A stretch of DNA of 39,105 nt from Escherichia phage T7, in sequence record MZ375239.1. One strand, given 5' to 3'. The first letter of the stretch is position 1. Each line of letters opens with the position of its first letter. The translations under genes and the position numbers were made by a program. The notes beneath the pieces were generated by a model. That model was not told the DNA's origin. It saw only the letters and a list, made by a program, of their open reading frames with translations, and did not search any database. Shown here piece after piece: positions 1 through 7,916 of this stretch.

Positions 1-160
1 TCTCACAGTGTACGGACCTAAAGTTCCCCCATAGGGGGTACCTAAAGCCCAGCCAATCACCTAAAGTCAACCTTCGGTTGACCTTGAGGGTTCCCTAAGG
101 GTTGGGGATGACCCTTGGGTTTGTCTTTGGGTGTTACCTTGAGTGTCTCTCTGTGTCCCT
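1..160. repeat. Left direct terminal repeat (TR) of T7 genome
   Basis: Bases 1-160 (tctcacagtgtacgg...ctgtgtccct) recur identically at 38946-39105; 160 bp matches the T7 terminal redundancy. Confidence 0.95.
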
Positions 161-345
161 ACCTGTTACAGTCTCCTAAAGTATCCTCCTAAAGTCACCT
201 CCTAACGTCCATCCTAAAGCCAACACCTAAAGCCTACACCTAAAGACCCATCAAGTCAACGCCTATCTTAAAGTTTAAACATAAAGACCAGACCTAAAGA
301 CCAGACCTAAAGACACTACATAAAGACCAGACCTAAAGACGCCTT
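161..345. repeat. Array of short CCTAAAG-type repeats adjacent to left TR (concatemer junction/packaging region)
   Basis: Repeated motifs cctaaag / cataaag / agaccagacctaaagac visible by eye roughly every 10-20 bp. Confidence 0.6.
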
Positions 346-387
346 GTTGTTAGCCATAAAGTGATAACCTTTAATCATTGTCTTTAT

Positions 388-410
388 TAATACAACTCAC
401 TATAAGGAGA
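388..410 (+). promoter_or_regulatory. T7 RNAP promoter phiOL
   Basis: taatacaactcactataaggaga, one mismatch to the class III consensus; +1 at 405 as in the T7 map. Confidence 0.85.
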
Positions 411-461
411 GACAACTTAAAGAGACTTAAAAGATTAATTTAAAATTTATCAAAAAGAGTA

Positions 462-498
462 TTGACTTAAAGTCTAACCTATAGGATACTTACAGCCA
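462..498 (+). promoter_or_regulatory. E. coli sigma70 early promoter A1
   Basis: -35 ttgact (462-467), 17-bp spacer, -10 gatact (485-490), start about 498. Confidence 0.85.
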
Positions 499-588
499 TC
501 GAGAGGGACACGGCGAATAGCCATCCCAATCGACACCGGGGTCAACCGGATAAGTAGACAGCCTGATAAGTCGCACGAAAAACAGGTA

Positions 589-626
589 TTGACAACATGA
601 AGTAACATGCAGTAAGATACAAATCG
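589..626 (+). promoter_or_regulatory. E. coli sigma70 early promoter A2
   Basis: -35 ttgaca (589-594), -10 taagat region, start about 626. Confidence 0.8.
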
Positions 627-703
627 CTAGGTAACACTAGCAGCGTCAACCGGGCGCACAGTGCCTTCTAGGTGACTTAAGCGCACCACGGCACATAAGG
701 TGA

Positions 704-750
704 AACAAAACGGTTGACAACATGAAGTAAACACGGTACGATGTACCACA
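704..750 (+). promoter_or_regulatory. E. coli sigma70 early promoter A3
   Basis: -35 ttgaca (704-709), 17-bp spacer, -10 tacgat (727-732). Confidence 0.8.
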
Positions 751-859
751 TGAAACGACAGTGAGTCACCACACTGAAAGGTGATGCGGTCTAACGAAAC
801 CTGACCTAAGACGCTCTTTAACAATCTGGTAAATAGCTCTTGAGTGCATGACTAGCGGA

Positions 860-895
860 TAACTCAAGGGTATCGCAAGGTGCCCTTTATGATAT
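860..895 (+). promoter_or_regulatory. RNase III processing hairpin R0.3
   Basis: Imperfect hairpin actcaagggtatcgcaaggtgcccttta just upstream of gene 0.3; position matches T7 R0.3. Confidence 0.55.
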
Positions 896-924
896 TCACT
901 AATAACTGCACGAGGTAACACAAG

Positions 925-1278
925 ATGGCTATGTCTAACATGACTTACAACAACGTTTTCGACCACGCTTACGAAATGCTGAAAGAAAACATCCGTTATG
1001 ATGACATCCGTGACACTGATGACCTGCACGATGCTATTCACATGGCTGCCGATAATGCAGTTCCGCACTACTACGCTGACATCTTTAGCGTAATGGCAAG
1101 TGAGGGCATTGACCTTGAGTTCGAAGACTCTGGTCTGATGCCTGACACCAAGGACGTAATCCGCATCCTGCAAGCGCGTATCTATGAGCAATTAACGATT
1201 GACCTCTGGGAAGACGCAGAAGACTTGCTCAATGAATACTTGGAGGAAGTCGAGGAGTACGAGGAGGATGAAGAGTAA
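925..1278 (+). CDS. 0.3: Ocr, DNA-mimic anti-restriction protein (gp0.3)
   Basis: 117-aa ORF, very acidic, sequence [22 protein letters not shown]... recognised as T7 Ocr; same coordinates as T7 reference. Confidence 0.97.
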
Positions 1279-1322
1279 TGTCTACTACCAACGTGCAATA
1301 CGGTCTGAACGCTATCTCATAA
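1278..1322 (+). pseudogene. 0.4: Truncated remnant of gene 0.4 (14 codons; first 10 match gp0.4 [10 protein letters not shown], then out-of-context NAIS-stop)
   Basis: ATG overlapping the 0.3 stop (TAATG); reading frame diverges from gp0.4 after codon 10 at a deletion junction near 1308/1309. Confidence 0.75.
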
Positions 1323-1344
1323 CGAACATAAAGGACACAATGCA

Positions 1345-2424
1345 ATGAACATTACCGACATCATGAACGCTATCGACGCAATCAAAGCACTGCCAATCTG
1401 TGAACTTGACAAGCGTCAAGGTATGCTTATCGACTTACTGGTCGAGATGGTCAACAGCGAGACGTGTGATGGCGAGCTAACCGAACTAAATCAGGCACTT
1501 GAGCATCAAGATTGGTGGACTACCTTGAAGTGTCTCACGGCTGACGCAGGGTTCAAGATGCTCGGTAATGGTCACTTCTCGGCTGCTTATAGTCACCCGC
1601 TGCTACCTAACAGAGTGATTAAGGTGGGCTTTAAGAAAGAGGATTCAGGCGCAGCCTATACCGCATTCTGCCGCATGTATCAGGGTCGTCCTGGTATCCC
1701 TAACGTCTACGATGTACAGCGCCACGCTGGATGCTATACGGTGGTACTTGACGCACTTAAGGATTGCGAGCGTTTCAACAATGATGCCCATTATAAATAC
1801 GCTGAGATTGCAAGCGACATCATTGATTGCAATTCGGATGAGCATGATGAGTTAACTGGATGGGATGGTGAGTTTGTTGAAACTTGTAAACTAATCCGCA
1901 AGTTCTTTGAGGGCATCGCCTCATTCGACATGCATAGCGGGAACATCATGTTCTCAAATGGAGACGTACCATACATCACCGACCCGGTATCATTCTCGCA
2001 GAAGAAAGACGGTGGCGCATTCAGCATCGACCCTGAGGAACTCATCAAGGAAGTCGAGGAAGTCGCACGACAGAAAGAAATTGACCGCGCTAAGGCCCGT
2101 AAAGAACGTCACGAGGGGCGCTTAGAGGCACGCAGATTCAAACGTCGCAACCGCAAGGCACGTAAAGCACACAAAGCTAAGCGCGAAAGAATGCTTGCTG
2201 CGTGGCGATGGGCTGAACGTCAAGAACGGCGTAACCATGAGGTAGCTGTAGATGTACTAGGAAGAACCAATAACGCTATGCTCTGGGTCAACATGTTCTC
2301 TGGGGACTTTAAGGCGCTTGAGGAACGAATCGCGCTGCACTGGCGTAATGCTGACCGGATGGCTATCGCTAATGGTCTTACGCTCAACATTGATAAGCAA
2401 CTTGACGCAATGTTAATGGGCTGA
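1345..2424 (+). CDS. 0.7: Ser/Thr protein kinase and host transcription shutoff protein (gp0.7)
   Basis: 359-aa ORF; length and sequence match T7 gp0.7; basic Arg/Lys-rich C-terminal region. Confidence 0.95.
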
Positions 2425-2429
2425 TAGTC

Positions 2430-2465
2430 TTATCTTACAGGTCATCTGCGGGTGGCCTGAATAGG
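2430..2465 (+). promoter_or_regulatory. RNase III processing hairpin R1
   Basis: Hairpin acaggtcatctgcgggtggcctga between genes 0.7 and 1. Confidence 0.55.
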
Positions 2466-2494
2466 TACGATTTACTAACTGGAAGAGGCACTAA

Positions 2495-5146
2495 ATGAAC
2501 ACGATTAACATCGCTAAGAACGACTTCTCTGACATCGAACTGGCTGCTATCCCGTTCAACACTCTGGCTGACCATTACGGTGAGCGTTTAGCTCGCGAAC
2601 AGTTGGCCCTTGAGCATGAGTCTTACGAGATGGGTGAAGCACGCTTCCGCAAGATGTTTGAGCGTCAACTTAAAGCTGGTGAGGTTGCGGATAACGCTGC
2701 CGCCAAGCCTCTCATCACTACCCTACTCCCTAAGATGATTGCACGCATCAACGACTGGTTTGAGGAAGTGAAAGCTAAGCGCGGCAAGCGCCCGACAGCC
2801 TTCCAGTTCCTGCAAGAAATCAAGCCGGAAGCCGTAGCGTACATCACCATTAAGACCACTCTGGCTTGCCTAACCAGTGCTGACAATACAACCGTTCAGG
2901 CTGTAGCAAGCGCAATCGGTCGGGCCATTGAGGACGAGGCTCGCTTCGGTCGTATCCGTGACCTTGAAGCTAAGCACTTCAAGAAAAACGTTGAGGAACA
3001 ACTCAACAAGCGCGTAGGGCACGTCTACAAGAAAGCATTTATGCGAGTTGTCGAGGCTGACATGCTCTCTAAGGGTCTACTCGGTGGCGAGGCGTGGTCT
3101 TCGTGGCATAAGGAAGACTCTATTCATGTAGGAGTACGCTGCATCGAGATGCTCATTGAGTCAACCGGAATGGTTAGCTTACACCGCCAAAATGCTGGCG
3201 TAGTAGGTCAAGACTCTGAGACTATCGAACTCGCACCTGAATACGCTGAGGCTATCGCAACCCGTGCAGGTGCGCTGGCTGGCATCTCTCCGATGTTCCA
3301 ACCTTGCGTAGTTCCTCCTAAGCCGTGGACTGGCATTACTGGTGGTGGCTATTGGGCTAACGGTCGTCGTCCTCTGGCGCTGGTGCGTACTCACAGTAAG
3401 AAAGCACTGATGCGCTACGAAGACGTTTACATGCCTGAGGTGTACAAAGCGATTAACATTGCGCAAAACACCGCATGGAAAATCAACAAGAAAGTCCTAG
3501 CGGTCGCCAACGTAATCACCAAGTGGAAGCATTGTCCGGTCGAGGACATCCCTGCGATTGAGCGTGAAGAACTCCCGATGAAACCGGAAGACATCGACAT
3601 GAATCCTGAGGCTCTCACCGCGTGGAAACGTGCTGCCGCTGCTGTGTACCGCAAGGACAAGGCTCGCAAGTCTCGCCGTATCAGCCTTGAGTTCATGCTT
3701 GAGCAAGCCAATAAGTTTGCTAACCATAAGGCCATCTGGTTCCCTTACAACATGGACTGGCGCGGTCGTGTTTACGCTGTGTCAATGTTCAACCCGCAAG
3801 GTAACGATATGACCAAAGGACTGCTTACGCTGGCGAAAGGTAAACCAATCGGTAAGGAAGGTTACTACTGGCTGAAAATCCACGGTGCAAACTGTGCGGG
3901 TGTCGATAAGGTTCCGTTCCCTGAGCGCATCAAGTTCATTGAGGAAAACCACGAGAACATCATGGCTTGCGCTAAGTCTCCACTGGAGAACACTTGGTGG
4001 GCTGAGCAAGATTCTCCGTTCTGCTTCCTTGCGTTCTGCTTTGAGTACGCTGGGGTACAGCACCACGGCCTGAGCTATAACTGCTCCCTTCCGCTGGCGT
4101 TTGACGGGTCTTGCTCTGGCATCCAGCACTTCTCCGCGATGCTCCGAGATGAGGTAGGTGGTCGCGCGGTTAACTTGCTTCCTAGTGAAACCGTTCAGGA
4201 CATCTACGGGATTGTTGCTAAGAAAGTCAACGAGATTCTACAAGCAGACGCAATCAATGGGACCGATAACGAAGTAGTTACCGTGACCGATGAGAACACT
4301 GGTGAAATCTCTGAGAAAGTCAAGCTGGGCACTAAGGCACTGGCTGGTCAATGGCTGGCTTACGGTGTTACTCGCAGTGTGACTAAGCGTTCAGTCATGA
4401 CGCTGGCTTACGGGTCCAAAGAGTTCGGCTTCCGTCAACAAGTGCTGGAAGATACCATTCAGCCAGCTATTGATTCCGGCAAGGGTCTGATGTTCACTCA
4501 GCCGAATCAGGCTGCTGGATACATGGCTAAGCTGATTTGGGAATCTGTGAGCGTGACGGTGGTAGCTGCGGTTGAAGCAATGAACTGGCTTAAGTCTGCT
4601 GCTAAGCTGCTGGCTGCTGAGGTCAAAGATAAGAAGACTGGAGAGATTCTTCGCAAGCGTTGCGCTGTGCATTGGGTAACTCCTGATGGTTTCCCTGTGT
4701 GGCAGGAATACAAGAAGCCTATTCAGACGCGCTTGAACCTGATGTTCCTCGGTCAGTTCCGCTTACAGCCTACCATTAACACCAACAAAGATAGCGAGAT
4801 TGATGCACACAAACAGGAGTCTGGTATCGCTCCTAACTTTGTACACAGCCAAGACGGTAGCCACCTTCGTAAGACTGTAGTGTGGGCACACGAGAAGTAC
4901 GGAATCGAATCTTTTGCACTGATTCACGACTCCTTCGGTACCATTCCGGCTGACGCTGCGAACCTGTTCAAAGCAGTGCGCGAAACTATGGTTGACACAT
5001 ATGAGTCTTGTGATGTACTGGCTGATTTCTACGACCAGTTCGCTGACCAGTTGCACGAGTCTCAATTGGACAAAATGCCAGCACTTCCGGCTAAAGGTAA
5101 CTTGAACCTCCGTGACATCTTAGAGTCGGACTTCGCGTTCGCGTAA
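2495..5146 (+). CDS. 1: T7 DNA-directed RNA polymerase (single-subunit)
   Basis: 883-aa ORF beginning MNTINIAKNDFSDIELAAIPFNTLADHYGERLAREQLALEHESYEMGEARF, the canonical T7 RNAP. Confidence 0.99.
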   Translation: MNTINIAKNDFSDIELAAIPFNTLADHYGERLAREQLALEHESYEMGEARFRKMFERQLKAGEVADNAAAKPLITTLLPKMIARINDWFEEVKAKRGKRPTAFQFLQEIKPEAVAYITIKTTLACLTSADNTTVQAVASAIGRAIEDEARFGRIRDLEAKHFKKNVEEQLNKRVGHVYKKAFMRVVEADMLSKGLLGGEAWSSWHKEDSIHVGVRCIEMLIESTGMVSLHRQNAGVVGQDSETIELAPEYAEAIATRAGALAGISPMFQPCVVPPKPWTGITGGGYWANGRRPLALVRTHSKKALMRYEDVYMPEVYKAINIAQNTAWKINKKVLAVANVITKWKHCPVEDIPAIEREELPMKPEDIDMNPEALTAWKRAAAAVYRKDKARKSRRISLEFMLEQANKFANHKAIWFPYNMDWRGRVYAVSMFNPQGNDMTKGLLTLAKGKPIGKEGYYWLKIHGANCAGVDKVPFPERIKFIEENHENIMACAKSPLENTWWAEQDSPFCFLAFCFEYAGVQHHGLSYNCSLPLAFDGSCSGIQHFSAMLRDEVGGRAVNLLPSETVQDIYGIVAKKVNEILQADAINGTDNEVVTVTDENTGEISEKVKLGTKALAGQWLAYGVTRSVTKRSVMTLAYGSKEFGFRQQVLEDTIQPAIDSGKGLMFTQPNQAAGYMAKLIWESVSVTVVAAVEAMNWLKSAAKLLAAEVKDKKTGEILRKRCAVHWVTPDGFPVWQEYKKPIQTRLNLMFLGQFRLQPTINTNKDSEIDAHKQESGIAPNFVHSQDGSHLRKTVVWAHEKYGIESFALIHDSFGTIPADAANLFKAVRETMVDTYESCDVLADFYDQFADQLHESQLDKMPALPAKGNLNLRDILESDFAFA

Positions 5147-5154
5147 CGCCAAAT

Positions 5155-5177
5155 CAATACGACTCACTATAGAGGGA
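5155..5177 (+). promoter_or_regulatory. T7 RNAP promoter phi1.1A
   Basis: caatacgactcactatagaggga; +1 at 5172. Confidence 0.85.
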
Positions 5178-5179
5178 CA

Positions 5180-5215
5180 AACTCAAGGTCATTCGCAAGA
5201 GTGGCCTTTATGATT
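5180..5215 (+). promoter_or_regulatory. RNase III processing hairpin R1.1
   Basis: actcaaggtcattcgcaagagtggccttta, the aaggtc...ggcctt hairpin family. Confidence 0.6.
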
Positions 5216-5229
5216 GACCTTCTTCCGGT

Positions 5230-5252
5230 TAATACGACTCACTATAGGAGAA
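5230..5252 (+). promoter_or_regulatory. T7 RNAP promoter phi1.1B
   Basis: taatacgactcactataggagaa; +1 at 5247. Confidence 0.9.
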
Positions 5253-5330
5253 CCTTAAGGTTTAACTTTAAGACCCTTAAGTGTTAATTAGAGATTTAAA
5301 TTAAAGAATTACTAAGAGAGGACTTTAAGT

Positions 5331-5459
5331 ATGCGTAACTTCGAAAAGATGACCAAACGTTCTAACCGTAATGCTCGTGACTTCGAGGCAACCAAAGGTC
5401 GCAAGTTGAATAAGACTAAGCGTGACCGCTCTCACAAGCGTAGCTGGGAGGGTCAGTAA
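5331..5459 (+). CDS. 1.1: gp1.1, small basic protein of unknown function
   Basis: 42-codon ORF MRNFEKMTKRSNRNARDFEATKGRKLNKTKRDRSHKRSWEGQ; position matches T7 gene 1.1. Confidence 0.8.
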   Translation: MRNFEKMTKRSNRNARDFEATKGRKLNKTKRDRSHKRSWEGQ

Positions 5460-5460
5460 G

Positions 5461-5718
5461 ATGGGACGTTTATATAGTGGTAATCTGGCAGCATTCAAGG
5501 CAGCAACAAACAAGCTGTTCCAGTTAGACTTAGCGGTCATTTATGATGACTGGTATGATGCCTATACAAGAAAAGATTGCATACGGTTACGTATTGAGGA
5601 CAGGAGTGGAAACCTGATTGATACTAGCACCTTCTACCACCACGACGAGGACGTTCTGTTCAATATGTGTACTGATTGGTTGAACCATATGTATGACCAG
5701 TTGAAGGACTGGAAGTAA
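5461..5718 (+). CDS. 1.2: gp1.2, inhibitor of host dGTP triphosphohydrolase
   Basis: 85-aa ORF starting MGRLYSGNLAAFKAATNKLF; matches T7 gp1.2. Confidence 0.88.
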   Translation: MGRLYSGNLAAFKAATNKLFQLDLAVIYDDWYDAYTRKDCIRLRIEDRSGNLIDTSTFYHHDEDVLFNMCTDWLNHMYDQLKDWK

Positions 5719-5738
5719 TACGACTCAGTATAGGGACA
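5716..5738 (+). promoter_or_regulatory. T7 RNAP promoter phi1.3
   Basis: taatacgactcagtatagggaca; +1 at 5733. Confidence 0.85.
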
Positions 5739-5739
5739 A

Positions 5740-5778
5740 TGCTTAAGGTCGCTCTCTAGGAGTGGCCTTAGTCATTTA
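5740..5778 (+). promoter_or_regulatory. RNase III processing hairpin R1.3
   Basis: gcttaaggtcgctctctaggagtggcctta hairpin. Confidence 0.6.
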
Positions 5779-5798
5779 ACCAATAGGAGATAAACATT

Positions 5799-6878
5799 AT
5801 GATGAACATTAAGACTAACCCGTTTAAAGCCGTGTCTTTCGTAGAGTCTGCCATTAAGAAGGCTCTGGATAACGCTGGGTATCTTATCGCTGAAATCAAG
5901 TACGATGGTGTACGCGGGAACATCTGCGTAGACAATACTGCTAACAGTTACTGGCTCTCTCGTGTATCTAAAACGATTCCGGCACTGGAGCACTTAAACG
6001 GGTTTGATGTTCGCTGGAAGCGTCTACTGAACGATGACCGTTGCTTCTACAAAGATGGCTTTATGCTTGATGGGGAACTCATGGTCAAGGGCGTAGACTT
6101 TAACACAGGGTCCGGCCTACTGCGTACCAAATGGACTGACACGAAGAACCAAGAGTTCCATGAAGAGTTATTCGTTGAACCAATCCGTAAGAAAGATAAA
6201 GTTCCCTTTAAGCTGCACACTGGACACCTTCACATAAAACTGTACGCTATCCTCCCGCTGCACATCGTGGAGTCTGGAGAAGACTGTGATGTCATGACGT
6301 TGCTCATGCAGGAACACGTTAAGAACATGCTGCCTCTGCTACAGGAATACTTCCCTGAAATCGAATGGCAAGCGGCTGAATCTTACGAGGTCTACGATAT
6401 GGTAGAACTACAGCAACTGTACGAGCAGAAGCGAGCAGAAGGCCATGAGGGTCTCATTGTGAAAGACCCGATGTGTATCTATAAGCGCGGTAAGAAATCT
6501 GGCTGGTGGAAAATGAAACCTGAGAACGAAGCTGACGGTATCATTCAGGGTCTGGTATGGGGTACAAAAGGTCTGGCTAATGAAGGTAAAGTGATTGGTT
6601 TTGAGGTGCTTCTTGAGAGTGGTCGTTTAGTTAACGCCACGAATATCTCTCGCGCCTTAATGGATGAGTTCACTGAGACAGTAAAAGAGGCCACCCTAAG
6701 TCAATGGGGATTCTTTAGCCCATACGGTATTGGCGACAACGATGCTTGTACTATTAACCCTTACGATGGCTGGGCGTGTCAAATTAGCTACATGGAGGAA
6801 ACACCTGATGGCTCTTTGCGGCACCCATCGTTCGTAATGTTCCGTGGCACCGAGGACAACCCTCAAGAGAAAATGTAA
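5799..6878 (+). CDS. 1.3: ATP-dependent DNA ligase
   Basis: 359-aa ORF with the ligase adenylation motif region AEIKYDGVRG (KxDG); matches T7 gp1.3. Confidence 0.95.
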   Translation: MMNIKTNPFKAVSFVESAIKKALDNAGYLIAEIKYDGVRGNICVDNTANSYWLSRVSKTIPALEHLNGFDVRWKRLLNDDRCFYKDGFMLDGELMVKGVDFNTGSGLLRTKWTDTKNQEFHEELFVEPIRKKDKVPFKLHTGHLHIKLYAILPLHIVESGEDCDVMTLLMQEHVKNMLPLLQEYFPEIEWQAAESYEVYDMVELQQLYEQKRAEGHEGLIVKDPMCIYKRGKKSGWWKMKPENEADGIIQGLVWGTKGLANEGKVIGFEVLLESGRLVNATNISRALMDEFTETVKEATLSQWGFFSPYGIGDNDACTINPYDGWACQISYMEETPDGSLRHPSFVMFRGTEDNPQEKM

Positions 6879-6883
6879 TCACA

Positions 6884-6916
6884 CTGGCTCACCTTCGGGT
6901 GGGCCTTTCTGCGTTT
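6884..6916 (+). terminator. Early terminator TE (rho-independent, E. coli RNAP)
   Basis: GC-rich hairpin ggctcaccttcgggtgggcc followed by tttctgcgttt immediately after the ligase gene. Confidence 0.85.
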
Positions 6917-6928
6917 ATAAGGAGACAC

Positions 6929-6951
6929 TTTTACGACTCACTAAAGGAGGT
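6929..6951 (+). promoter_or_regulatory. T7 RNAP promoter phi1.5 with altered upstream edge (positions -16 and -15 read TT instead of AA)
   Basis: ttttacgactcactaaaggaggt; -14 to +6 intact, upstream AT-rich recognition element changed by the gene 1.4 deletion junction. Confidence 0.6.
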
Positions 6952-6958
6952 ACACACC

Positions 6959-7048
6959 ATGATGTACTTAATGCCATTACTCATCGTCATTGTAGGATGC
7001 CTTGCGCTCCACTGTAGCGATGATGATATGCCAGATGGTCACGCTTAA
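6959..7048 (+). CDS. 1.5: gp1.5, small hydrophobic protein of unknown function
   Basis: 29-codon ORF MMYLMPLLIVIVGCLALHCSDDDMPDGHA; position matches T7 gene 1.5. Confidence 0.7.
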   Translation: MMYLMPLLIVIVGCLALHCSDDDMPDGHA

Positions 7049-7068
7049 TACGACTCACTAAAGGAGAC
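7046..7068 (+). promoter_or_regulatory. T7 RNAP promoter phi1.6
   Basis: taatacgactcactaaaggagac; +1 at 7063. Confidence 0.9.
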
Positions 7069-7073
7069 ACTAT

Positions 7074-7334
7074 ATGTTTCGACTTCATTACAACAAAAGC
7101 GTTAAGAATTTCACGGTTCGCCGTGCTGACCGTTCAATCGTATGTGCGAGCGAGCGCCGAGCTAAGATACCTCTTATTGGTAACACAGTTCCTTTGGCAC
7201 CGAGCGTCCACATCATTATCACCCGTGGTGACTTTGAGAAAGCAATAGACAAGAAACGTCCGGTTCTTAGTGTGGCAGTGACCCGCTTCCCGTTCGTCCG
7301 TCTGTTACTCAAACGAATCAAGGAGGTGTTCTGA
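7074..7334 (+). CDS. 1.6: gp1.6, unknown function
   Basis: 86-aa ORF; matches T7 gene 1.6 length and position. Confidence 0.85.
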
Positions 7335-7916
7335 TGGGACTGTTAGATGGTGAAGCCTGGGAAAAAGAAAACCCGCCAGTACAAGCAACTGGGTGTATAG
7401 CTTGCTTAGAGAAAGATGACCGTTATCCACACACCTGTAACAAAGGAGCTAACGATATGACCGAACGTGAACAAGAGATGATCATTAAGTTGATAGACAA
7501 TAATGAAGGTCGCCCAGATGATTTGAATGGCTGCGGTATTCTCTGCTCCAATGTCCCTTGCCACCTCTGCCCCGCAAATAACGATCAAAAGATAACCTTA
7601 GGTGAAATCCGAGCGATGGACCCACGTAAACCACATCTGAATAAACCTGAGGTAACTCCTACAGATGACCAGCCTTCCGCTGAGACAATCGAAGGTGTCA
7701 CTAAGCCTTCCCACTACATGCTGTTTGACGACATTGAGGCTATCGAAGTGATTGCTCGTTCAATGACCGTTGAGCAGTTCAAGGGATACTGCTTCGGTAA
7801 CATCTTAAAGTACAGACTACGTGCTGGTAAGAAGTCAGAGTTAGCGTACTTAGAGAAAGACCTAGCGAAAGCAGACTTCTATAAAGAACTCTTTGAGAAA
7901 CATAAGGATAAATGTT

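What the first reader, a model, noticed from the sequence alone, without database searches (positions are those of the whole stretch)
6917..6958. ORF-precise 156-bp deletion of gene 1.4 with an orphaned Shine-Dalgarno and an altered phi1.5 promoter
Seen in sequence: after terminator TE there is a strong SD (taaggagacacttt, 6918-6931) with no start codon behind it; it runs directly into acgactcactaaaggagg, i.e. the phi1.5 promoter with positions -16/-15 reading TT instead of AA. From phi1.6 (+1 at 7063) onward all landmarks are offset by -832, i.e. a further 156 bp. In T7 as I remember it, the 51-codon gene 1.4 (156 bp with its stop) lies here and its TAA overlaps the TAA at the 5' end of phi1.5; removing exactly ATG through TAA reproduces the observed junction. 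Inference: a deletion this exact looks engineered rather than spontaneous, and phi1.5 is probably weakened but not abolished.
Basis: partly seen in the sequence, partly recalled or inferred. Interest (0 to 1): 0.5.

Follow-up and report, generated by a model that had tools for sequence, protein, structure and literature searches.

The report
Engineered gene 1.4 deletion in T7
The window is a laboratory phage T7 genome from which the small non-essential gene 1.4 was cut out exactly from start to stop codon by a published CRISPR genome-reduction method, leaving an unused ribosome-binding site and a slightly altered phage promoter; it is real but already known.

Summary
The window equals the T7 reference minus two deletions. 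One removes reference bases 7608-7763, exactly the gene 1.4 coding sequence from ATG to TAA (156 bp), with no microhomology at the junction (window 6931|6932). Its ribosome-binding site (6918-6931) is left with no start codon. Promoter phi1.5 (+1 at 6946) now reads TTT instead of TAA at -17..-15.

The "engineered" reading is supported. The identical junction occurs in 63 GenBank records, all lab "Mutant Escherichia phage T7 clone T7_nnL/S". It is absent from environmental collections. The clone names match Yuan et al. 2022 (NAR, CiPGr), whose "cassette-gene" library deletes whole genes using Cas9 and 50-bp homology arms. Other deletions in that lineage also begin exactly at start codons. Natural T7 relatives that lack gene 1.4 have a different junction: no ribosome-binding-site remnant and an intact TAATACG.

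Published single-substitution data give about 68% activity for each of -16 A>T and -15 A>T. So phi1.5 is probably modestly weakened, not abolished. That is inferred, not measured.

Novelty: already known. Interest: low.

The parts
5799..6878 (+). Gene 1.3 (DNA ligase), intact; the last gene before the junction
   Evidence: Reference 6475-7554 minus 676. The coordinates are the same as those annotated in sibling clone T7_50S.
6886..6917 (+). Early terminator TE: hairpin GGCTCACC-TTCG-GGTGGGCC (6886-6905) plus the tail TTTCTGCGTTT; unchanged
   Evidence: Identical to the reference. The reference annotates TE at 7588, which is window 6912. The RNA fold shows the 8-bp hairpin.
6918..6931 (+). Orphaned ribosome-binding site of the deleted gene 1.4 (TAAGGAGACACTTT; core AAGGAG at 6919-6924), with no start codon behind it
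   Evidence: In the reference these bases directly precede the gene 1.4 ATG at 7608. The next start-like codon in the window is 34 nt away, at 6959.
6931..6932 (.). Deletion junction: reference 7607 joined to 7764, removing 156 bp (gene 1.4, ATG through TAA) with 0-bp microhomology
   Evidence: The exact 40-nt junction is present in 63 lab T7 mutant records only. It is absent from environmental collections.
6929..6951 (+). Class II T7 promoter phi1.5, -17..+6, now TTTTACGACTCACTAAAGGAGGT (-16/-15 AA>TT); +1 G at 6946
   Evidence: One search gives the -17..+6 comparison with the reference. One search gives phi1.5 +1 at reference 7778.
6959..7048 (+). Gene 1.5 (29 codons) with its own Shine-Dalgarno sequence AAGGAGG; intact
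   Evidence: Reference 7791-7880 minus 832; sequence read.
7046..7068 (+). Promoter phi1.6 (TAATACGACTCACTAAAGGAGAC), +1 at 7063; intact
1305..1313 (+). Junction of the window's other deletion (reference about 1310-1985; genes 0.4 (most), 0.5, 0.6A/B; 676 bp versus the reference). It lies at an imperfect 9-bp direct repeat, CTGA(C/A)CGCT. It serves as an internal contrast showing what an unplanned deletion looks like.
   Evidence: The paper reports unplanned "large fragment" losses in gp0.3-0.6.

Best explanation
The window is a laboratory derivative of phage T7. It is most likely clone T7_40L (GenBank MZ375239) from the CRISPR/Cas9 iterative phage genome reduction (CiPGr) experiment of Yuan, Shi, Jiang and Ma (NAR 2022).

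Gene 1.4 encodes a 51-aa, very hydrophobic protein of unknown function. It was removed by template-directed homologous recombination: a plasmid supplied two 50-bp arms flanking the coding sequence, and Cas9 cut phages that still carried the gene. Because the design deletes from the first base of the start codon, the gene 1.4 ribosome-binding site remains as an orphan.

The gene 1.4 TAA stop codon is also positions -17..-15 of promoter phi1.5, so the deletion replaced TAA with the TTT that preceded the ATG. The changed positions lie in the AT-rich upstream element, and both changes swap A for T. The specificity and initiation regions (-12..+6) are intact. phi1.5 is therefore expected to keep roughly half of its activity (inferred).

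Any loss should be buffered. T7 RNA polymerase transcripts from phi1.1A, phi1.1B and phi1.3 are known to read through TE (established T7 biology, not tested here), and phi1.6 lies 117 bp downstream.

Shown here: the deletion itself, its exactness, its restriction to this lab lineage, and the design signature. Inferred: the identity of the exact clone, and the quantitative effect on phi1.5.
For: The window equals NC_001604 minus exactly CDS 7608-7763, with 0-bp microhomology.

The rough chance that a random deletion coincides with one annotated CDS is about 7.5e-8.

The identical 40-nt junction is in 63 records, all "Mutant Escherichia phage T7 clone ..." MZ3752xx/OL9647xx, and on several different upstream backgrounds. 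It has 0 hits in IMG/VR and 0 in JGI metagenomes.

Clone names follow transfer number plus L/S: T7_10S, 30L, 30S, 40S, 50S, 290S, 300L, 300S. The paper picked large and small plaques every 10 transfers up to 300, sequenced 60 T7 mutants from the cassette-gene library, and names T7_300L. MZ375239, the slot for T7_40L, is the one accession missing from the collection.

Eleven SpCas9 protospacers lie inside gene 1.4.

Other deletions in clone T7_300S start exactly at the ATG or GTG of genes 5.3 and 7.7, and consistently with the ATG of gene 4.3. All leave orphan ribosome-binding sites.

The window shares lab-parent SNPs with T7_10S and lineage SNPs (RNAP Q184R, gp16 G809S) with T7_30L and T7_50S.

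For the promoter, Komura 2018 gives a consensus promoter RNA/DNA ratio of 142-188 (mean 169). It gives 114.5 for -16 A>T, 115.7 for -15 A>T and 7.2 for -15 A>C. The -17..-13 stretch is the AT-rich element. T7's own phi4.7 has T at -16.

The junction is unchanged from transfer 30 to transfer 300. In T7_290S the TTT-bearing promoter, fused to phi1.6, is the only local promoter before gene 1.6 in a viable phage.
Against: The paper's accession list (Supplementary Table S10) and its cassette sequences could not be read. The main text never mentions gp1.4. The link between the GenBank series and the paper therefore rests on clone names and the sampling scheme.

The paper gives T7_300L as 36,937 bp, while GenBank MZ375291 (clone T7_300L) is 37,262 bp.

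The paper says regulatory elements were not targeted, yet three promoter bases were removed. This fits an oversight caused by the stop-codon/promoter overlap, but I cannot confirm that.

The right-hand ends of sibling deletions are not uniform: they keep 23-34 nt before the next gene. The exact design rule is therefore not established.

No activity measurement exists for the -16T/-15T double variant in the phi1.5 context.
Confidence: 0.93

Rival explanations
1. Spontaneous deletion by illegitimate or short-repeat recombination during T7 replication, which happened to remove gene 1.4.
For: T7 does lose DNA spontaneously. The window itself carries such a deletion at an imperfect 9-bp repeat. Sibling T7_50S lost 189 bp between 9-bp repeats ATAGAGTCA. 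T7_290S lost gene 1.5 between the phi1.5 and phi1.6 repeats.
Against: The gene 1.4 junction has 0 bp of microhomology, and both ends fall exactly on the first base of the ATG and the last base of the TAA. The chance estimate is about 7.5e-8. The same left-end rule recurs at genes 5.3, 7.7 and 4.3. The identical junction sits on several different backgrounds.
Confidence: 0.02
2. A natural gene-1.4-less allele, inherited or acquired by recombination with a T7 relative that lacks the gene.
For: Gene 1.4 is an accessory gene in the genus. Only 46 phage records encode a gp1.4-like protein. Yersinia phage Y, Cedecea phage Yanou, E. coli phage C5 and Salmonella phage 3A_8767 go straight from TE to phi1.5.
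Against: The natural allele reads GCGTTTA|ATACGACTC, with no ribosome-binding-site remnant and an intact TAATACG. The window keeps the 13-14 nt remnant and has TTT. The flanks are 100% T7, whereas those relatives are 85-88% identical. The junction is absent from natural isolates and metagenomes.
Confidence: 0.01
3. Engineered, but by a different route or laboratory than CiPGr (for example recombineering, synthesis and rebooting, or a later derivative of the CiPGr phages), so the provenance assigned here is wrong although the nature of the lesion is right.
For: PV223880 and PV223883 ("recombinant T7-B") carry the same junction plus a -14 T>A change. This shows the allele circulates in later constructs. 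The accession-to-paper link was not read directly.
Against: The window has exactly the MZ3752xx junction without the -14 change. It shares the 677-bp gene 0.4-0.6 deletion with T7_50S and lineage SNPs with T7_30L, T7_50S and T7_300S. Its length and content fit the only missing accession of the series.
Confidence: 0.03
4. An assembly or sequencing artefact: a collapsed or mis-joined region.
For: phi1.5 and phi1.6 are near-identical repeats 117 bp apart and could confuse assemblers.
Against: The deleted segment is not bounded by repeats. The junction was recovered in 63 separately deposited genomes.
Confidence: 0.01

Closest known systems
CiPGr cassette-gene genome-reduced T7 mutants (Yuan et al., Nucleic Acids Res 2022, PMC9825161; GenBank MZ375233-MZ375294 and OL9647xx)
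   Same: Identical gene 1.4 junction. Same lab-parent and lineage SNPs. The same type of unplanned early-region deletion. Deletions start at the start codon. The clone naming scheme fits.
   Different: No material difference. The window appears to be one of these genomes (probably T7_40L). It has only two deletions plus a few private SNPs, whereas late clones have lost up to about 3 kb.
Natural Teseptimaviruses lacking gene 1.4 (Yersinia phage Y JQ957925, Cedecea phage Yanou, Escherichia phage C5, Salmonella phage 3A_8767)
   Same: TE is followed almost immediately by phi1.5 and gene 1.5. This shows that the 1.4-less architecture is viable in nature.
   Different: In these phages TE runs directly into an intact TAATACGACTC, with no leftover ribosome-binding site. 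The window retains TAAGGAGACACTTT and has TTT at -17..-15.
Spontaneous T7 deletions between short direct repeats (classical early-region deletion mutants; cited from memory: Studier et al. 1979)
   Same: Loss of non-essential early or class II DNA with retention of viability.
   Different: Those deletions have repeat or microhomology junctions and arbitrary endpoints within genes, as does the window's own gene 0.4-0.6 deletion. The gene 1.4 deletion has neither feature.
T7 promoter variants with substitutions in the -17..-13 AT-rich element (Komura et al. 2018, PMC5937735; Imburgio et al. 2000, cited there)
   Same: The same positions and base changes (-16 A>T, -15 A>T).
   Different: The published values are for single substitutions in the consensus class III promoter in vitro. 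Here both occur together in the weaker class II phi1.5 context (A at -2, GGAGG start) and in vivo.

Membership tests
CiPGr cassette-gene T7 mutant series (Yuan et al. 2022) | T7 backbone derived from that laboratory's wild type | tested here: met
   The window shares gp11 A153E, gp12 T468A and gp17 K214E with clone T7_10S. The parent's extra A at 1896 falls inside the first deletion, so 39938 - 677 - 156 = 39105.
CiPGr cassette-gene T7 mutant series (Yuan et al. 2022) | Template-designed whole-gene deletion: endpoints at gene boundaries and no microhomology | tested here: met
   Reference 7608-7763 is removed exactly, with 0-bp microhomology. Sibling deletions begin at start codons. The method is described.
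CiPGr cassette-gene T7 mutant series (Yuan et al. 2022) | Identical junction in named clones of the series | tested here: met
   63 records carry the exact 40-nt junction, including T7_30L, 30S, 40S, 50S, 290S, 300L and 300S.
CiPGr cassette-gene T7 mutant series (Yuan et al. 2022) | SpCas9-targetable sites inside the deleted gene | tested here: met
   11 protospacers with NGG lie fully inside gene 1.4.
CiPGr cassette-gene T7 mutant series (Yuan et al. 2022) | Accession and cassette sequence listed in the paper's Supplementary Tables S1 and S10 | not testable with these tools
   No supplementary files are held. MZ375239 is absent from the collection.
Functional T7 RNA polymerase promoter (class II, phi1.5) | Specificity region -12..-5 (CGACTCAC) and initiation region -4..+6 unchanged | tested here: met
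   Window 6934-6951 is identical to the reference.
Functional T7 RNA polymerase promoter (class II, phi1.5) | AT-rich upstream element -17..-13 (TAATA) | tested here: inconclusive
   It now reads TTTTA. It is still 5/5 A or T, but 2 of 5 bases differ. Each single change gives about 68% activity in vitro in the consensus promoter. The double change was not found.
Functional T7 RNA polymerase promoter (class II, phi1.5) | Measured transcription initiation at +1 | not testable with these tools
   This needs in vitro transcription or 5'-end mapping.
Spontaneous short-repeat deletion | Direct repeat or microhomology at the junction | tested here: not met
   0 bp at 6931|6932. By contrast, the junction at 1305-1313 lies in an imperfect 9-bp repeat.
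Natural gene-1.4-less allele of Teseptimavirus | TE abutting an intact TAATACGACTC, with no gene 1.4 ribosome-binding site | tested here: not met
   Alignment A1.

The most novel reading that the evidence does not exclude
The clipped promoter and the loss of gp1.4 may not be neutral by-products. Under this reading, loss of the small hydrophobic gp1.4, or reduced or retimed transcription from the TTT form of phi1.5, was itself advantageous in E. coli MG1655. That would help explain why every sequenced isolate from transfer 30 to 300 carries the allele unchanged. It would also help explain why a phi1.5/phi1.6 hybrid carrying the TTT end can serve as the only local promoter for gene 1.6. If so, the -17..-15 triplet of a class II promoter would be dispensable in vivo.
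Probability: 0.07. Interest if true: 0.25.

Novelty: already known. Interest (0 to 1): 0.08.

Why it matters
The finding matters mainly for bookkeeping. It identifies the window as an engineered, published T7 genome-reduction mutant rather than a natural variant. Features near 6917-6958 should therefore not be read as biology that evolved.

It also illustrates a practical design pitfall. In compact phage genomes, a "clean" ORF deletion can clip an overlapping regulatory element; here the gene 1.4 stop codon is also phi1.5 positions -17..-15. Such a deletion also leaves an orphan ribosome-binding site.

The allele persisted unchanged through about 260 further transfers. That is indirect evidence that both gene 1.4 and the upstream-most bases of phi1.5 are dispensable under laboratory conditions.

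Tried and rejected
- Searching the paper library for the accession numbers (MZ375234, MZ375237, MZ375293, OL964739, PV223880, PV223883) found nothing relevant. A full-text search for "bacteriophage T7" + "gene 1.4" + "deletion" found nothing.
- The CiPGr paper's supplementary tables are not held, and its main text does not mention gp1.4 or gp1.5.
- The PhageMaP preprint does not discuss g1.4.
- The 2026 T7 Promoter Calculator preprint measured all double mutants, but its data files are not held. The -16T/-15T double variant is also not in the stored part of Komura's table.
- The simple terminator scan does not detect TE. Folding and identity to the reference were used instead.
- Several fetched loci (L002, L004, L005, L011) were not available to the Python sandbox. 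Sibling deletions were therefore checked with DNA alignment and the DNA search.
- Rejected as a real gene: a new fusion ORF across the junction. A mechanical 49-aa ORF (6899-7048) starts at a GTG inside the TE hairpin and runs into the gene 1.5 frame, but it has no ribosome-binding site.
- Rejected: translation from the orphan ribosome-binding site. No start-like codon lies within 34 nt of it.

Full report
**What is in the sequence**

The region reads ...GGCTCACCTTCGGGTGGGCCTTTCTGCGTTTATAAGGAGACACTTTTACGACTCACTAAAGGAGGTACACACCATGATG.... BLAST against the T7 reference NC_001604 shows that the window (39,105 bp) is collinear with it in three blocks. Window 1-1313 equals reference 1-1313. Window 1305-6931 equals reference 1981-7607. 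Window 6932-39105 equals reference 7764-39937. There are 12 mismatches and no other gaps.

The second break removes reference bases 7608-7763. The reference record annotates exactly this stretch as the gene 1.4 CDS. The four flanks (AGGAGACACTTT | ATGTTTAAG...AACTGGTAA | TACGACTCACTA) share no microhomology, so the endpoints are unambiguous.

The gene 1.4 ribosome-binding site (TAAGGAGACACTTT, 6918-6931) remains. The next ATG/GTG/TTG is the gene 1.5 start at 6959.

The gene 1.4 TAA is also positions -17..-15 of phi1.5. The promoter therefore now reads TTTTACGACTCACTAAAGGAGGT instead of TAATACGACTCACTAAAGGAGGT, with +1 at 6946. The phi1.6 +1 base is at 7063, which is 7895 minus 832. TE, gene 1.5, phi1.6 and gene 1.6 are all intact. 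No gp1.4-like coding sequence exists elsewhere in the window.

**Where it comes from**

A 1.1-kb query across the junction matches dozens of GenBank records at 100% in a single piece. All of them are titled "Mutant Escherichia phage T7 clone T7_nnL/S".

A 40-nt probe centred on the junction cannot seed on wild-type T7. It hits 63 records, all from the MZ3752xx and OL9647xx lab series. The 30-nt junction has no exact match in IMG/VR viral contigs or JGI metagenome contigs.

The clone names are:
- MZ375234: T7_10S
- MZ375237: T7_30L
- MZ375238: T7_30S
- MZ375240: T7_40S
- MZ375242: T7_50S
- MZ375290: T7_290S
- MZ375291: T7_300L
- MZ375292: T7_300S

They follow transfer number plus plaque size.

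This is the sampling scheme of Yuan et al. 2022 (PMC9825161). That study picked large and small plaques every 10 transfers up to 300 from the T7 cassette-gene library. It sequenced 60 of them, and it names T7_300L. The method supplies a 100-bp repair template (two 50-bp arms) together with a Cas9 spacer. [quoted passage not shown]

MZ375239, the slot for T7_40L, is the only accession in that stretch absent from the searchable collection. The window shares the series' lab-parent SNPs and lineage SNPs. I therefore infer that the window is T7_40L.

Three caveats apply. The accession table of the paper could not be read. The main text does not mention gp1.4. The paper's length for T7_300L (36,937 bp) differs from the GenBank record (37,262 bp).

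**Tests that separate engineered from spontaneous or natural**

(a) Design signature. In late clone T7_300S, the deletions of genes 5.3 and 7.7 begin exactly at the ATG and GTG respectively. The deletion of gene 4.3 is consistent with starting at the ATG. Each leaves an orphan ribosome-binding site and keeps 23-34 nt in front of the next gene. For gene 1.4, the next gene starts 27 nt after its stop codon, so the whole CDS could be removed.

(b) Internal contrast. The window's other deletion (genes 0.4-0.6) sits at an imperfect 9-bp direct repeat and cuts inside gene 0.4. The 189-bp loss in T7_50S lies between 9-bp repeats. The gene 1.5 loss in T7_290S lies between the phi1.5 and phi1.6 repeats. 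These are what unplanned T7 deletions look like. The paper reports such unplanned "large fragment" losses.

(c) Natural alleles. Gene 1.4 is an accessory gene: a gp1.4-like protein is encoded in only 46 phage records. Several Teseptimaviruses go directly from TE to phi1.5. But their sequence is GCGTTTA|ATACGACTC, with no ribosome-binding-site remnant and an intact TAATACG. The window's junction is therefore not a natural allele.

(d) Feasibility and chance. Eleven SpCas9 protospacers lie inside gene 1.4. The rough chance that a random deletion equals one annotated CDS is about 7.5e-8.

**Consequences for expression (inferred)**

The -17..-13 stretch is the AT-rich upstream element of the T7 promoter. 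The specificity and initiation regions are unchanged here.

In Komura et al. 2018 the consensus promoter gave RNA/DNA ratios of 142-188 (mean about 169). The -16 A>T variant gave 114.5 and -15 A>T gave 115.7, each about 68% of consensus. The -15 A>C variant gave 7.2, about 4%. Swapping A for T is therefore far better tolerated than introducing G or C.

T7's own phi4.7 has T at -16. If the two effects multiply, about 45% activity is expected. The double variant itself was not in any data I could read.

Functionally the change should be buffered. Upstream class II promoters produce transcripts that read through TE (established T7 biology, not tested here), and phi1.6 lies 117 bp downstream.

The lineage gives indirect support. 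The junction stays identical from transfer 30 to transfer 300. In T7_283, T7_286 and T7_290S-type clones, recombination between phi1.5 and phi1.6 leaves a single hybrid promoter, TTTTACGACTCACTAAAGGAGACAC, in front of gene 1.6 in viable phage. A later construct (PV223880, "recombinant T7-B") carries an additional -14 T>A change.

**Verdict**

The feature is a published, engineered lesion, so novelty is "already known" and interest is low.

The only open point is the size of the effect on phi1.5, which needs a transcription assay.

Noticed in passing
window 1305-1313 (reference about 1310-1985): A second deletion of 676 bp (677 bp relative to the lab parent, which has an extra A at 1896). It removes most of gene 0.4 plus genes 0.5 and 0.6A/B. 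The junction lies in an imperfect 9-bp direct repeat, CTGACCGCT / CTGAACGCT. gp0.4 is truncated to 14 aa ([14 protein letters not shown]). It looks like an unplanned loss or CRISPR escape, as the paper reports for gp0.3-0.6. A 564-bp variant occurs in T7_30L, T7_40S and T7_300S.
   Followed up: partly
window 3045 (reference 3721, gene 1): T7 RNA polymerase Q184R (CAA>CGA). It is present in T7_30L, T7_50S and T7_300S but not in T7_10S or the reference. It apparently became fixed in the same lineage as the gene 1.4 deletion. Significance unknown.
   Followed up: partly
window 32187, 33235, 33340 (gene 16): Three missense changes in the internal virion protein gp16: G809S, K1158R and A1193V. G809S is shared with T7_30L and T7_50S but not T7_300S.
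   Followed up: partly
window 38740, 38758, 38760 (reference 39572, 39590, 39592; downstream of gene 19.5): A private cluster of three SNPs. Two of them turn GCATCACACC into GCTTGACACC, creating a perfect TTGACA hexamer. T7_30L has a different private SNP 14 bp away. T7_50S has deleted 189 bp spanning the site, between 9-bp repeats ATAGAGTCA. This pattern suggests a Cas9-escape hot spot. The spacer design was not available.
   Followed up: partly
window 162: A T>C change two bases past the 160-bp left terminal repeat, shared with T7_30L and T7_30S. The PhageMaP preprint flags insertions at positions 142 and 162 as deleterious.
   Followed up: partly
L006-L009 (Yersinia phage Y, Cedecea phage Yanou, E. 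coli phage C5, Salmonella phage 3A_8767), about position 440-470 of each locus: Natural relatives lack gene 1.4. TE runs straight into an intact phi1.5 (GCGTTTAATACGACTC). Relative to them, T7 carries a 169-bp insert made of a ribosome-binding site plus gene 1.4, so gene 1.4 behaves like a small accessory gene (moron-like) cassette. Phage C5 also lacks phi1.6 at the usual place.
   Followed up: partly
L010 (PV223880, recombinant T7-B) 350-365: The same gene 1.4 junction with an extra T>A at promoter position -14 (TTTAACGACTC). It may be a later mutation in a derivative of the CiPGr phage. No source paper was found.
   Followed up: partly
L015 (MZ375290, T7_290S) about 165-195; also MZ375283 and MZ375286: Gene 1.5 was lost by recombination between the 19-nt repeat shared by phi1.5 and phi1.6. 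This leaves one hybrid promoter carrying the TTT 5' end directly in front of gene 1.6.
   Followed up: yes
window 6899-7048, + strand: A mechanical 49-aa ORF starts at a GTG inside the TE hairpin and reads across the junction into the gene 1.5 frame. It has no ribosome-binding site and there is no evidence it is used.
   Followed up: yes
window 23853, 25411, 34431: Differences from NC_001604 that are shared with clone T7_10S, and so belong to the laboratory's parental T7: gp11 A153E, gp12 T468A and gp17 K214E.
   Followed up: yes
MZ375291 (L012): The GenBank clone T7_300L is 37,262 bp, whereas the paper states 36,937 bp for T7_300L. Clone T7_300S (36,844 bp) is shorter than the clone the paper calls the smallest.
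   Followed up: no
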